32,000 nt of DNA. It comes from Candidatus Thorarchaeota archaeon (lineage in GTDB: Archaea; Asgardarchaeota; Heimdallarchaeia; Hodarchaeales; Hodarchaeaceae). The first letter of the stretch is position 1; every line of letters begins with the position of its first letter. Location: NCBI GenBank assembly GCA_048882505.1, contig JBHLRO010000016.1:30001-62000 (forward strand), written 5' to 3'. The notes below the pieces were generated by a model. The model saw only the letters and a list, made by a program, of their open reading frames with translations. It was not told the DNA's origin and searched no databases. Of this stretch, positions 20,750 through 24,580 are shown one piece after another. Both the position numbers and the translations under genes were made by a program.

Positions 20750-22852
20750 TCACCCTGTAAGCAAGGCTCGAAGTTCAATTAAGACTTTATCTATCTCATT
20801 ATTCGCACTTTGAAGTTGCTTATCGTAACTAAGTTTTAATTTCGCATAAGCCTCTTTTCCAATGCGTCCTTGGGTCTTTTTGCGCTCAAGTGAATCAATA
20901 TTATGCAAAATATCCTCACGATTAGCTTCCGCAACTTCAATTGTCCTCATAGCAATTCGATAGCGTCGGCTTTCGTCAGCTAATTTCCGTGACACACTCA
21001 CAATGGAACGATCGGCCTGTTCCATTCGATTATTCAGAAGAGCCCGGGTTTTTTCGTACTCGCGGGCCGAAATCTTCTTGGTTTTCCGTCTATTATCCAA
21101 TCTCAAGATTTGAGCTCTGATTGCTGTCTTTTCTTCGTAATTCTTGACAAAATTCCTAATCAGATCTAGGGGTATTTCTTCAAGTAATACACGTCTGGGT
21201 TTTATCCCAAATGAGATGTTTCGAACAAGAGTGTAAGCGATTCCCAGTACGAGCAAGAAAAGGAAAATTGAGAGAGGTTGATAGAAGGGATACACAGGGG
21301 CAAGACCTGCAATGAGATCAATGTAGCGAATGCTTAATGGTGTCAAGTCCTCGTACATTAAATGAATTCCAACGCTATTGAACAATCCTAGAAATTCTCT
21401 TTCCGAAACAGTAGAACTTGCAAGAACGGGGCGGAGAGTTTGTTTTTGGGTGGTATTAACCATATCTTCAAGGTTGAACGTGGATCCAAATGGTAAAAGT
21501 AGGTTAAATTCGAATTGGCGGATGGTCCAATTATTTGCGATGGTCAGCGGCAAATGAAGTTGTATCCTTCCGTTGCCAAGATCAGAAGCGATATCTGATG
21601 TTCGTTCGCGGTAAGACATTTGGAGGTAATATATTTCTCCTCTTTCTATTTCAACACGCGGATTAATCCGGACAATCTTTTTTCCTGGGGTAGTTGTTGT
21701 CGCCGATGCTATGGAAATGTTGCCATAATTATCACGGAAACCAATTTTTTGGGCATTTTCAGGTACGTTGAAACTGATAGATGGGAACGTGTCACTGCCC
21801 AGCGCAGTCTTCAATGTTGATCCAGATTGGATTCCAATGTTTCGGATTACGATATCGTGAACTGTGGTTGTCCAATCCCATTCCGAGACGATGACCTTAG
21901 TGGTTAGAGAAGAAAATTCGATGCTAGTATAGACTTGTTGTGAATAATCGAATGAAAGATAGTAGGCAGTGAAATTGGCCTTCAATCTGGGCTGATAGGC
22001 AGGAATAAACGGTAAATTCGCCAATCGAGTTAGATTATAATTCCCGTATTCAGTTGTGTTCAATACGGTTCTGTCAATAGTGGCTAAATCAGTGACGTTC
22101 GCAATTCGAATTCCTTGTTGGTCATTCGTCAAAGTTCCTGTGAATGACGATGGATCGGGTGTAATTGTGTCATTGTCTATAGAAACGGGATGAACCGTCC
22201 CTGCAGTGTCTTTACCTATGGACCAATCAACATGGTATCGTGTTATTGGTAAGGAAATCATTGGGATGAACGAAAGATTAAAGGAGTATGGAAACGTAGC
22301 TTCTTCTAATTGCGTATCCGTGTCATAGATGACGGCATGGGGATGATCCATCTGAATCGTAATGACTGAGTATTTAGTCGGTTCAATCTCTGGGAAAGCG
22401 ACCACATAGACCACAGAATCATTATTCGATTCGATTTTCTGCCACTCCGTAGATTTAGTCTCCGTATCGTTGCTCGATAAGATTCGTAGGTACTTAATAT
22501 CACTATACTCCGCAAAGGGGAGAGTGAGGTTGAAAGCATCTATCGGATTCAGCCCGTTGTTGGATACCTCAATGCGGATGGTCTCACTGGTATACGCGTA
22601 TTCGTTTGCCACAATTGTACGGGTGACATTGACTTGGTGACTAGTATTGGTTAGGTCTTCTGGATCAAAAAAGTTCAGGTTTTCTAGAGAAATTTGTTTT
22701 GTCGGGTTTTGCGTTATTCTTGCCTGGGGATCCAAAGATTGCGGGGAAATTACCATACCAGAGGTAATCACAGCAATTGATGCGAAGAAGAGGCTTGAAA
22801 AAACGATACCTACAAGAAAAAATTGGTAGCCTACCCTACGTATTTGTTTCAT
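20750..22852 (-). CDS. Ribophorin I (RPN1/OST1)-like type I membrane protein, a eukaryotic signature protein
   Basis: N-terminal signal/TM, long N-x-S/T-rich beta-type luminal region, GFRDNYGNIS (RPN1 YRDxIGNIS motif) followed by INPRVEIERGE (RPN1 xPRFPLFGGW position), single TM near residue 525, cytoplasmic coiled-coil tail. Confidence 0.78.
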   Translation of the reverse strand: MKQIRRVGYQFFLVGIVFSSLFFASIAVITSGMVISPQSLDPQARITQNPTKQISLENLNFFDPEDLTNTSHQVNVTRTIVANEYAYTSETIRIEVSNNGLNPIDAFNLTLPFAEYSDIKYLRILSSNDTETKSTEWQKIESNNDSVVYVVAFPEIEPTKYSVITIQMDHPHAVIYDTDTQLEEATFPYSFNLSFIPMISLPITRYHVDWSIGKDTAGTVHPVSIDNDTITPDPSSFTGTLTNDQQGIRIANVTDLATIDRTVLNTTEYGNYNLTRLANLPFIPAYQPRLKANFTAYYLSFDYSQQVYTSIEFSSLTTKVIVSEWDWTTTVHDIVIRNIGIQSGSTLKTALGSDTFPSISFNVPENAQKIGFRDNYGNISIASATTTTPGKKIVRINPRVEIERGEIYYLQMSYRERTSDIASDLGNGRIQLHLPLTIANNWTIRQFEFNLLLPFGSTFNLEDMVNTTQKQTLRPVLASSTVSEREFLGLFNSVGIHLMYEDLTPLSIRYIDLIAGLAPVYPFYQPLSIFLFLLVLGIAYTLVRNISFGIKPRRVLLEEIPLDLIRNFVKNYEEKTAIRAQILRLDNRRKTKKISAREYEKTRALLNNRMEQADRSIVSVSRKLADESRRYRIAMRTIEVAEANREDILHNIDSLERKKTQGRIGKEAYAKLKLSYDKQLQSANNEIDKVLIELRALLTG

Positions 22853-23074
22853 TTACTTGAGCACCTTTGAAATCCTTGTTGGGTACGGAATTCACCAGAT
22901 TTCGACTAAAACGATCCCGCTCTGTCAGCGGTAAAATATTTTGTCCTTTTTCTACTATTTGCACGAGAGGATAGCAAGAAAACAAATAAATTTCTACCTC
23001 TAATCCCCCTCCTACAACGGATATGGAGGCCTGAAAATCACTACGGGTCTTCATTTCTCTCTGAGGTAGCTCAA

Positions 23075-24580
23075 ATGACATCTCGTTTTCTGCAAGCGGT
23101 CCGTCCTTTTATGTCCATAACCCCTGAAGTAGTTAAACCTACCCGTGAGGTGCGTTTTAATGAAAAAATGGCCTGGACGTTTGTAGCCTTGATTATCTAT
23201 TTCGTTATGGCGTCTACACCCATTTTACTTGCAAATCCTGGGGAGAGTGATCCATTCGCCTACATGCGGACTATTACCGCATCAACTCAAGGATCACTGG
23301 CCGAGTTAGGTATCGGCCCAATAGTTACTGCAGGACTTATTATGCAGATTTTGGTTGGAAGCAAGATTATTAATATCAATATGGGCGATCCGGAGGAACG
23401 TTCTCTTTATACAGGCGCTCAAAAGGTCATGTCTGTGGCTATGACCATCATCGAAGCTGTTGCGTTTCTAATAGGTGGAAGTTACGGCCGAGATCTTGAA
23501 TTACCTGCTCAAATGGCCATCATCGGACAACTACTGTTTGCTGGTATCATCATTATCCTGTTAGATGAATTGGTGCAGAAAGGTTGGGGTTTAGGATCTG
23601 GAATATCACTTTTCATCGCTGGTGGAGTTGGCCTACAAATCTTTACCGGACTATTCTCTGTCCAGGCCATTACAGAGGGCCCTGCAGATTTGTTATCAAA
23701 CCGTGGAATTGTCCTGGCGTTCTTAGCTTGGGTAAGCGCGTATGGGATACCTACGGCTATCGGGGCCTTGTTTTTCCGATACGATCCCTCGAACAATCTT
23801 AATCTCCCCTCCTTATCCCTGCTCTCGGTCATTGCGACCGTTGTGGTCTTCATTATTGTCATATACTTTGAATCCATGCGGATTGAGATACCGGTAGCGT
23901 ATACCCAGTATAAGGGGATTCGGTCAACTTACCCTATTAAGTTGTTGTACGTTTCTAATATCCCCGTTATTCTAACTTCGGCGGTCTTTGCGGACATCTA
24001 CTTCATCGCGCAAATCCTTTGGAATGCCAGCACAGGTGGTGGCACTACCAATCCTGATCTGCTCTCTCGCCTTCTTGGAACGTTTAAACCTGACGATGTG
24101 TCAGGACAATATGTCCCGCAAACTGGCCTGGTCTATTTCTTAACACCGCCTCGGTCGCTTGTGGGAGAATTAGGGGTCATCGATCCAGCGGCTCCGCTGT
24201 CTTCGATTACACGTGCGCTGGTTTATGCCTTGGTCTTGATCTTTCTGTCGGTGGTATTTTCGGTCATGTGGTTGGATACTGCGGGGATGGGACCGCGTGA
24301 TGTGGCACAGCAGTTTCTACAATCAGGAATGCAAATGCCAGGCTGGCGACAGAGCAAGAAACGGATTGAACGTCGGCTAGAAATGTATATTCCCACGATT
24401 ACAGTAATAGGAGGCATTTTTATAGGTGTACTTGCCGCTTTTGCTGATTTTCTTGGTGCTATCGGTTCAGGAATGGGTATTTTGCTATCGGTAAGTATTA
24501 TGCGCCAATATTTTGAACTAATCAGTAAAGAGCGGGTTGCAGAAATGAATCCCGCATTACGTGGATTCTTGGGGCTCTGA
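23075..24580 (+). CDS. secY: Protein translocase SecY/Sec61 alpha
   Basis: GSLAELGIGPIVTAGLIMQIL.G, LLDELVQKGWGLGSGISLFIA, YPIKLLYVSNIPVIL, GMQMPGWR, YIPTITVIGG, GSGMGILLSVSI. Confidence 0.99.
   Translation: MTSRFLQAVRPFMSITPEVVKPTREVRFNEKMAWTFVALIIYFVMASTPILLANPGESDPFAYMRTITASTQGSLAELGIGPIVTAGLIMQILVGSKIININMGDPEERSLYTGAQKVMSVAMTIIEAVAFLIGGSYGRDLELPAQMAIIGQLLFAGIIIILLDELVQKGWGLGSGISLFIAGGVGLQIFTGLFSVQAITEGPADLLSNRGIVLAFLAWVSAYGIPTAIGALFFRYDPSNNLNLPSLSLLSVIATVVVFIIVIYFESMRIEIPVAYTQYKGIRSTYPIKLLYVSNIPVILTSAVFADIYFIAQILWNASTGGGTTNPDLLSRLLGTFKPDDVSGQYVPQTGLVYFLTPPRSLVGELGVIDPAAPLSSITRALVYALVLIFLSVVFSVMWLDTAGMGPRDVAQQFLQSGMQMPGWRQSKKRIERRLEMYIPTITVIGGIFIGVLAAFADFLGAIGSGMGILLSVSIMRQYFELISKERVAEMNPALRGFLGL

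What the first reader, a model, noticed from the sequence alone, without database searches (positions are those of the whole stretch)
20750..24580. Ribophorin I homolog is head-to-head with secY/Sec61 alpha
Seen: RPN1-like (-) and secY (+) start 222 nt apart and share one intergenic region. Known: in eukaryotes RPN1 is an OST subunit that works at the Sec61 translocon for co-translational N-glycosylation, and RPN1 homologs are Asgard eukaryotic signature proteins. Inferred: secY has left the ribosomal operon and become divergently paired with an OST subunit, suggesting co-regulation of an archaeal translocon-OST supercomplex.
Basis: partly seen in the sequence, partly recalled or inferred. Interest (0 to 1): 0.7.

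Follow-up and report, generated by a model that had tools for sequence, protein, structure and literature searches.

The report
Ribophorin I gene facing secY
In one genus of Hodarchaeales, among the closest archaeal relatives of eukaryotes, the gene for a ribophorin I (Ost1) homologue sits head-to-head with the main protein-export channel gene secY. The proteins are already known, but the gene pairing appears undescribed, and Lokiarchaeia-like genomes pair the same gene with Sec61beta instead.

Summary
Window 20750-22852 (-) encodes a 700-aa ribophorin I/Ost1 homologue. It scores 43.7 bits on Pfam (cut-off 25), and its eight best PDB fold matches are all RPN1/Ost1. Its tail matches the solved ribosome-binding domain of MK-D1 OST1. 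It starts 222 nt from the main secY gene (23075-24580, +).

- The pair occurs in all 20 assessable genomes of this Hodarchaeales genus.
- It was not found in other Heimdallarchaeia families or in 31 other Asgard genomes. Family f3 keeps the canonical L15-secY order.
- secY is still inside a broken-up ribosomal-protein region.
- Each gene has its own conserved A/T-rich box and Shine-Dalgarno site. The spacer between the boxes varies, so a shared promoter is not shown, and no RNA data exist.

Two other links argue against pure chance. Another Asgard family pairs the ribophorin I gene with Sec61beta in 9 of 9 genomes. Heimdallarchaeial family f3 keeps STT3 2.7 kb from Sec61beta. Most genomes of this genus also carry an OST48-like gene 4-5 kb away.

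The protein families and the translocon-OST model are published (Eme 2023; Carilo 2024). Only the gene linkage seems new. This scan had already noted the same pairing in other genomes of the genus.

The parts
20750..22852 (-). Ribophorin I / Ost1 homologue, 700 aa. Signal or anchor helix at residues 2-30, two extracellular beta-sandwich domains (about 61-518), one TM helix (521-549) and a cytosolic four-helix bundle (562-699).
   Evidence: Pfam PF04597 scores 43.7 bits. The profile hits PDB 8WHN_A at E 1.3e-6 and human RPN1 6S7O_E at E 1.5e-4. The AF2 model has pLDDT 86.8. The eight best Foldseek hits are all RPN1/Ost1, E 3e-30 to 1e-21.
20493..20753 (-). 86-aa 2x[4Fe-4S] ferredoxin. Its GTG start overlaps the ribophorin I stop by 4 nt, so the two genes are probably co-transcribed.
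   Evidence: Pfam Fer4 families. The ferredoxin follows the ribophorin I gene in every genus genome examined and in one genome of family f2.
22853..23074 (.). 222-nt divergent intergenic region.
   Evidence: Sequence. Alignment of 19 relatives shows gaps of 222-844 nt and two conserved blocks with a variable middle part.
22932..22942 (-). Conserved A/T box TAAAATATTTT, about 85 nt upstream of the ribophorin I start. Putative TATA element of the ribophorin I-ferredoxin unit. The conserved leader block 22896-22931 adjoins it.
   Evidence: Conserved in all 19 aligned intergenic regions. Its function is inferred.
22977..22994 (+). Conserved A-rich box AAGAAAACAAATAAATTT, about 85 nt upstream of the secY start. 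Putative secY promoter element.
   Evidence: The core AAA..AATAAA is conserved across the genus. Its function is inferred.
23075..24580 (+). secY / Sec61alpha, 501 aa, the principal copy in this genome.
   Evidence: Pfam SecY 220.6 bits and Plug 29.7 bits. It is 80% identical across the genus and sits on a short branch in the tree, whereas the paralogues are divergent.
24725..26644 (+). 639-aa protein of no known family, co-directional after secY. Present there only in a subclade (G000, G016, G021).
   Evidence: No Pfam hit. Synteny.
12756..16097 (+). Ribosomal protein segment L32e-L19e-L18-S5-L30-L15, the ancestral upstream neighbours of secY.
   Evidence: Pfam. The canonical order is kept in family f3.
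16361..20342 (.). Block lying between L15 and the ribophorin I unit: epimerase (-), a 131-aa 4-TM protein (+), a 439-aa CobW/ParA-like NTPase (-), a 106-aa 3-TM protein (+) and Trm112 (+).
   Evidence: Pfam. The stretch from the 131-aa protein to Trm112 is conserved in most genus genomes.
27026..27997 (+). Ribosomal proteins S8 and L6, displaced to downstream of secY.
   Evidence: Pfam.

Best explanation
SHOWN. The minus-strand gene encodes the Hodarchaeales orthologue of Ost1/ribophorin I. It is a type I membrane protein with two extracellular beta-sandwich domains, one TM helix and a basic cytosolic four-helix bundle. That bundle is homologous to the ribosome-binding tail of human RPN1 and of MK-D1 OST1. 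The plus-strand gene is the organism's principal SecY/Sec61alpha. The two are transcribed divergently: secY alone (or with one unknown gene in this subclade), and ribophorin I together with a small ferredoxin. Each unit has its own conserved A/T-rich box about 85 nt upstream and its own Shine-Dalgarno site. The pair is fixed in one genus.

INFERRED. The pair arose when a block containing the ribophorin I gene came to lie between L15 and secY during the break-up of the ribosomal-protein supercluster. It has probably been kept because back-to-back promoters help to make the translocon and its ribosome-docking OST accessory subunit together. The protein itself most likely works as in eukaryotes. 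As part of an AglB/STT3-based OST, it would sit beside the SecYE-beta channel, and its tail would hold the translating ribosome.
For: Identity of the proteins:
- Pfam, PDB profile hits, the AF2 model and Foldseek, where the top eight hits are all RPN1/Ost1 including the human Sec61-TRAP-OST-A translocon 8B6L.
- The cytosolic tail is the most conserved part of the protein, 75% identity against 51% for the ectodomain, and is net basic, 35 K+R against 23 D+E. It aligns to the solved MK-D1 domain that pulled down ribosomes (Carilo 2024, PMC11417166).

The pairing:
- It holds in 20 of 20 assessable genus genomes, although ribophorin I is only 46-53% identical among most of them.
- In the 12 genomes with 20-kb context, both flanks were rearranged at least 2-3 times while ferredoxin-ribophorin I<>secY stayed intact.

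Recurrence elsewhere:
- Family f14 (four genera) has ribophorin I<>Sec61beta in 9 of 9 genomes, with a gap of about 152 nt.
- Consecutive RefSeq accessions for MK-D1 OST1 and Sec61beta in Table S1 of PMC11417166 suggest the same pairing there.
- Family f3 keeps Sec61beta divergent from an operon that ends in STT3, in 7 of 9 genomes.
- In 12 of the 20 genus genomes in which it was found, an OST48/WBP1-like gene lies 4-9 kb from the ribophorin I gene. An OST3/6-like gene directly precedes S10-S7.
- In the complete genome G009, STT3, SecE, the OST48-like gene, ribophorin I, SecY and the OST3/6-like gene all lie within 78 kb of 4.9 Mb.
Against: - The pairing is restricted to one genus, so it is not needed for function in other Asgard archaea.
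- Neighbouring genes with no evident link to secretion, such as Trm112 and the NTPase, are also syntenic across much of the genus. Conservation may therefore be mere descent.
- The two promoter-like boxes are separate. The DNA between them ranges from about 50 nt to several hundred nt of unconserved A/T-rich sequence, which does not look like one shared regulatory element.
- In the human translocon, RPN1 touches the ribosome rather than Sec61alpha. This rests on established knowledge of structures 6S7O and 8B6L.
- All of these genes lie in a region rich in housekeeping genes, which raises the chance of accidental adjacency.
- No expression or interaction data exist for this organism.
Confidence: 0.55

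Rival explanations
1. The adjacency is a neutral by-product. The Hodarchaeales ribosomal-protein supercluster fragmented, and a block that happened to carry the ribophorin I gene landed between L15 and secY. The pair persists in the genus only because too little time has passed to break it. There is no co-regulation.
For: - The r-protein cluster is split in these genomes (Tirumalai 2023, PMC10833476).
- The pairing is limited to one genus.
- Unrelated neighbours are syntenic too.
- The promoter boxes are separate and the spacer varies.
Against: - Two further, independent OST-Sec61 gene links exist in other Asgard lineages.
- A rough estimate gives a chance of about 1e-4 that the upstream neighbour of the ribophorin I gene is a Sec61 subunit gene in two of about 20 family-level arrangements (inference). 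The figure is weaker if all of these genes share one core region.
- Both flanks of the triad broke repeatedly while the triad did not.
Confidence: 0.35
2. The protein works mainly as a ribosome receptor or translocon accessory factor of SecYE-beta, independently of AglB/STT3. Its recruitment into a multi-subunit OST would then be a later, eukaryotic step.
For: - The cytosolic ribosome-binding-type tail is the most conserved part of the protein.
- Its gene neighbours Sec61 subunit genes, not STT3, in two lineages.
- STT3 is about 39 kb away in this genus, at least where both genes lie on one contig.
Against: - The ectodomain keeps the full two-domain Ost1 fold that contacts STT3 in the solved OSTs.
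- OST3/6-like and OST48-like genes co-occur in the genome.
- Eme 2023 (PMC10307638) reports a near-complete OST subunit set in Heimdallarchaeia.
Confidence: 0.1
3. The arrangement is a binning or assembly artefact of a metagenome-assembled genome.
For: The genome is a draft of 83 contigs with 3.7% contamination.
Against: The same junction is present in 20 separate genomes, including single-contig ones, and in independent sequencing studies.
Confidence: 0.01

Closest known systems
OST1 (ribophorin I) of Candidatus Prometheoarchaeum syntrophicum MK-D1. Cytosolic domain solved as PDB 8WHN (Carilo et al. 2024, PMC11417166).
   Same: Same family and domain order. The C-terminal four-helix bundle aligns at E 1.3e-6 over residues 548-687. 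That domain bound ribosomes in pull-downs, and AF2 models placed it in a Sec61/OST/TRAP assembly.
   Different: The protein here is about 90 aa longer (700 aa against 607). Its gene partner is secY, whereas the MK-D1 OST1 and Sec61beta accessions are consecutive and Lokiarchaeia-like genomes pair the gene with Sec61beta. The paper does not discuss gene order: no occurrence of operon, synteny or neighbour was found.
Human RPN1 in OST-A and the Sec61-TRAP-OST-A translocon (PDB 6S7O, 8B6L), and yeast Ost1 (6EZN, 6C26).
   Same: Best structural matches: E 3e-30 to 1e-21, and TM-score by target 0.69-0.72 for the luminal part plus TM helix. There is a sequence-level profile hit over residues 295-543.
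   Different: Only 12-14% identical. The archaeal protein would sit in the cell membrane, not the ER. Association with STT3 and the ribosome is inferred, not shown.
Canonical archaeal spc operon end, ...L18-S5-L30-L15-secY.
   Same: The same genes are present on the same strand, and L15 is still only 7 kb upstream of secY.
   Different: Six protein genes, tRNAs and a small RNA now separate them. S8-L6 has moved to downstream of secY. secY has its own promoter-like box. The three-segment split of this cluster in some Heimdallarchaeota is published (PMC10833476).
Ribophorin I<>Sec61beta divergent pair of another Asgard family
   Same: The same OST subunit gene lies head-to-head with a translocon subunit gene. 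It is fully conserved within its lineage, 9 of 9 genomes. A Trm112-type gene is nearby in both lineages.
   Different: The partner is Sec61beta rather than Sec61alpha. The gap is about 152 nt. It spans four genera rather than one.

Membership tests
Ribophorin I / Ost1 (Pfam PF04597) | Scores above the curated family threshold. | tested here: met
   43.7 bits against a cut-off of 25, E 2.6e-11. It is the only such gene in the genome.
Ribophorin I / Ost1 (Pfam PF04597) | Two luminal or extracellular beta-sandwich domains followed by a single TM helix, with the Ost1 fold. | tested here: met
   AF2 pLDDT 86.8. The eight best PDB matches are all RPN1/Ost1, and the ninth hit is about 13 orders of magnitude weaker in E-value.
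Ribophorin I / Ost1 (Pfam PF04597) | Cytosolic C-terminal four-helix bundle, the ribosome-binding domain of metazoan RPN1 and MK-D1 OST1. | tested here: met
   Four helices at 562-699. Profile hit to 8WHN_A at E 1.3e-6. Ribosome binding itself was not tested.
Ribophorin I / Ost1 (Pfam PF04597) | Physical subunit of an STT3-containing OST. | not testable with these tools
   STT3/AglB is present on contig C24. No interaction data exist.
SecY / Sec61alpha | SecY family HMM plus plug domain, and principal copy in the genome. | tested here: met
   220.6 and 29.7 bits. The other SecY-like gene of this genome is 40% identical and carries an in-frame TAG.
Divergent gene pair with a shared bidirectional promoter (co-regulated) | A single conserved regulatory element between the two starts. 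| tested here: inconclusive
   There are two separate conserved boxes, each about 85 nt from its own start. The spacer between them ranges from about 50 to several hundred nt.
Divergent gene pair with a shared bidirectional promoter (co-regulated) | Correlated transcript levels. | not testable with these tools
   No RNA run is listed for this DNA.
spc-operon secY | secY directly follows L15. | tested here: not met
   L15 ends at 16097 and secY starts at 23075. The feature is met in family f3.
OST48 / WBP1 (Pfam PF03345), for the neighbouring 427-aa gene of the genus block | Family HMM above threshold, or a matching fold. | tested here: inconclusive
   25.8-28.6 bits against a cut-off of 36. 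The profile hits human OST48 at E 6e-5 but the IFT52 GIFT domain at E 6e-8. The AF2 model was unusable, pLDDT 36.

The most novel reading that the evidence does not exclude
Asgard archaea have repeatedly and independently placed the Ost1/ribophorin I gene head-to-head with a Sec61 subunit gene: Sec61alpha in this Hodarchaeales genus and Sec61beta in Lokiarchaeia-like genomes. STT3 also lies beside Sec61beta in another heimdallarchaeial family. On this reading, selection for matched synthesis or co-assembly of a ribosome-translocon-OST supercomplex already acted before eukaryotes arose.
Probability: 0.35. Interest if true: 0.65.

Novelty: new member of a known kind. Interest (0 to 1): 0.45.

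Why it matters
Whether co-translational N-glycosylation at the translocon predates the ER is an open question in eukaryogenesis. The proteins are already catalogued. Gene linkage between OST accessory subunits and Sec61 subunits, seen in three separate Asgard lineages, is independent genomic evidence that these machines work together in archaea. It also identifies short intergenic regions and culturable relatives such as MK-D1 (for the Sec61beta pair) in which co-expression could be measured directly.

Tried and rejected
- Complex prediction of SecY with ribophorin I residues 300-700 gave no answer, score 0.00. This is not evidence either way.
- The look-up of sequencing runs listed no RNA holder, so expression could not be examined and read laying was not used.
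Synteny was done with the genome search instead.
- I considered that the 106-aa 3-TM protein (19581-19901) or the 131-aa 4-TM protein (17634-18029) might be small OST subunits such as Ost2/DAD1. Nothing supported this: Pfam DAD found nothing in the genome, Pfam at E up to 10 gave only unspecific TM hits, PDB profile searches were empty, and the Atlas gave no named relative. A resemblance to DAD1 that I recalled from memory could not be checked and is not used.
- The AF2 model of the OST48-like protein had pLDDT 36 and was not searched.
- The sigma-70 promoter and terminator scan does not apply to archaea and was ignored.
- The 110-126-aa gene beside the OST48-like gene is a soluble protein with only a weak SepF-like hit (E 0.019), not a membrane subunit.
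- The extra SecY paralogues are not in ribosomal operons. The pair is therefore not a duplicate that left an operon copy behind.
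Full report
**What is there.** The window is contig C16, bases 30001-62000, of a 4.3-Mb draft genome that is 94.6% complete. Its closest protein relatives are labelled Heimdallarchaeota/Hodarchaeales. ORF 20750-22852 (-) encodes 700 aa and ORF 23075-24580 (+) encodes 501 aa. Their starts are 222 nt apart. The first protein passes the Pfam Ribophorin_I threshold at 43.7 bits against 25. The second scores 220.6 bits on SecY and also carries the Sec61 plug domain.

**The ribophorin I homologue.**
- A profile of 17 relatives hits two solved structures and nothing else of note. 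One is the crystallised cytosolic domain of MK-D1 OST1 (8WHN_A, E 1.3e-6, residues 548-687). The other is human RPN1 (6S7O_E, E 1.5e-4, residues 295-543, including the TM helix).
- An AlphaFold2 model built on 54 diverse relatives is confident, with mean pLDDT 86.8. It shows an N-terminal helix, two beta-sandwich domains, a TM helix at 521-549 and four long cytosolic helices at 562-699.
- In Foldseek against the PDB, the top eight matches are all RPN1/Ost1, E 3e-30 to 1e-21. They include the chain in the human Sec61-TRAP-OST-A translocon (8B6L). The next hit is far weaker, E 2e-8.
- Within the genus the cytosolic bundle is the most conserved part, at 75% identity against 51% for the ectodomain. 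It is net basic. The ectodomain carries 14 N-x-S/T sequons where 6.5 are expected.
- It is the only such gene in the genome, and it is present in 60 of 61 related genomes.
- Carilo et al. 2024 showed that the homologous MK-D1 domain is a four-helix bundle that pulls down ribosomes. They also modelled an Asgard Sec61/OST/TRAP assembly. Eme et al. 2023 catalogued Ost1-5, Swp1 and Wbp1 homologues in Heimdallarchaeia.
- The protein and the supercomplex idea are therefore published.

**The secY gene.**
- It is the principal copy: 80% identical across the genus and short-branched in a tree.
- The genus also carries extra SecY paralogues, 73-78% or 37-40% identical. None of them sits in a ribosomal operon.
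- In heimdallarchaeial family f3 the canonical order S8-L6-L32e-L19e-L18-S5-L30-L15-secY is intact.
- Here L32e-L15 (12756-16097) is followed by an epimerase, a 4-TM protein, an NTPase, a 3-TM protein, Trm112, a ferredoxin and the ribophorin I gene. Only then comes secY, and S8-L6 lies 2.4 kb downstream of it.
- secY has thus been separated from L15 but remains inside a fragmented ribosomal region. The three-way split of this cluster in some Heimdallarchaeota is already described (PMC10833476).

**How widespread the pair is.**
- I compared the coordinates of both genes in 61 related genomes. The divergent pair is present in 20 genomes of the genus, with gaps of 222-865 nt. The remaining two genomes are too fragmented to judge.
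- In the sister family of the order, one genome has a different upstream neighbour and the other has the two genes on separate short contigs.
- The pair was not found in the other families of the class. There the ribophorin I gene neighbours DeoC/MutS/MutL, ThiF, Yip1 or a hexapeptide transferase.
- It was also not found in 31 genomes of other Asgard classes that have both genes. The nearest spacing there is 20 kb.
- In the 12 genus genomes for which I fetched 20 kb, both flanks differ in at least two or three ways, while ferredoxin-ribophorin I<>secY is invariant.

**The intergenic region.** An alignment of 19 relatives shows two conserved blocks.
- The first is TAAAATATTTT plus an adjoining leader, 22896-22942, about 85 nt upstream of the ribophorin I start.
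- The second is an AAA..AATAAA box, 22977-22994, about 85 nt upstream of secY.
- Each gene also has a Shine-Dalgarno motif.
- The sequence between the boxes is unconserved. It is about 50 nt here and several hundred A/T-rich nt in most relatives, with no conserved ORF.

This looks like two back-to-back promoters rather than one shared element. Co-regulation is possible but not shown. No RNA run holds this DNA.

**Wider pattern.** The genus block usually also holds an OST48/WBP1-like gene. It lies 4-9 kb from the ribophorin I gene in 12 of the 20 genus genomes where it was found. In this genome it lies 45 kb away, beside S7-S10 and an OST3/6-like gene that directly precedes S10-S7 throughout the genus. 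Both of these assignments are below Pfam thresholds. The OST48-like profile does hit human OST48 at E 6e-5. In the complete genome G009, STT3, SecE, the OST48-like gene, ribophorin I, SecY and the OST3/6-like gene all lie within 78 kb of 4.9 Mb.

- In family f14 (four genera, another class), the ribophorin I gene is head-to-head with Sec61beta in 9 of 9 genomes, with a gap of about 152 nt. I verified this on two loci with Pfam.
- Table S1 of Carilo et al. lists consecutive accessions for MK-D1 OST1 and Sec61beta.
- In family f3, Sec61beta is divergent from an operon ending in STT3 in 7 of 9 genomes.

Two different Sec61 partners for the same OST gene imply at least two independent events. By a rough estimate (my inference) this has a chance of about 1e-4 if neighbours were random. 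The estimate weakens if all of these genes share one housekeeping region.

**Verdict.** It goes beyond the evidence on a shared promoter and on generality. The most likely reading (0.55) is a lineage-specific divergent pair that is retained because coordinated synthesis of translocon and OST accessory subunits is useful. The main rival (0.35) is neutral retention after cluster fragmentation. The proteins are known, and only the gene linkage appears undescribed in the papers I could search. The scan had already noted the same pairing in other genomes of this genus.

Noticed in passing
G000 contig C6:72097-73712 (locus L066 9062-10845): A third, very divergent SecY paralogue, 40% identical to the main copy, with an in-frame TAG here but intact in G016. 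An 84-aa ORF with a weak SecE match precedes it and a double winged-helix regulator follows it. This may be an accessory SecYE pair. Several genus genomes also carry a 73-78% identical second SecY beside a similar regulator.
   Followed up: partly
G000 contig C16:5018-8616 (locus L073): An OST48/WBP1-like gene (427 aa) and an OST3/6-like gene (153 aa, TM part only) flank ribosomal genes S7 and S10. The order HTH regulator - OST3/6-like - S10 - S7 is conserved throughout the genus.
   Followed up: partly
window 17634-18029 (+) and 19581-19901 (+): Two small conserved multi-TM proteins of no detectable family (131 aa with 4 TM helices, 106 aa with 3 TM helices) sit in the block next to the ribophorin I gene. 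The 131-aa gene is directly upstream of the ribophorin I gene in a sister-family genome (L058). They are candidates for small OST or translocon subunits, but no test supported this.
   Followed up: partly
L137 2255-2878 (-) and window 20061-20342 (+): A Trm112-domain gene lies next to the ribophorin I gene both in the Sec61beta-pairing family f14 and in this genus. This may be an old ribophorin I-Trm112 neighbourhood.
   Followed up: no
L136 3451-9441 (G042): In family f3, Sec61beta is divergent from an operon of a DNA polymerase small-subunit-like gene, a Roadblock/LC7 gene and STT3. Next comes a protein with PCI and E3_UFM1_ligase Pfam hits (25.4 bits against a cut-off of 23.2). This is notable because in eukaryotes UFMylation acts on ER-bound ribosomes.
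   Followed up: no
window 28002-28095 (+): ARAGORN calls a 94-nt tRNA-SeC (anticodon TCA) just after L6. Rfam scores it as a tRNA at 57.5 bits.
   Followed up: no
L073 4280-4828 (+) and L038 3793-4335 (+): An RNA polymerase Rpb5/RpoH homologue carries an extra N-terminal Mrr-like nuclease-fold domain. Its length is eukaryote-like for this subunit.
   Followed up: no
window 24725-26644 (+): A 639-aa, apparently soluble helical protein with no Pfam family follows secY. It is found there only in the G000/G016/G021 subclade.
   Followed up: no
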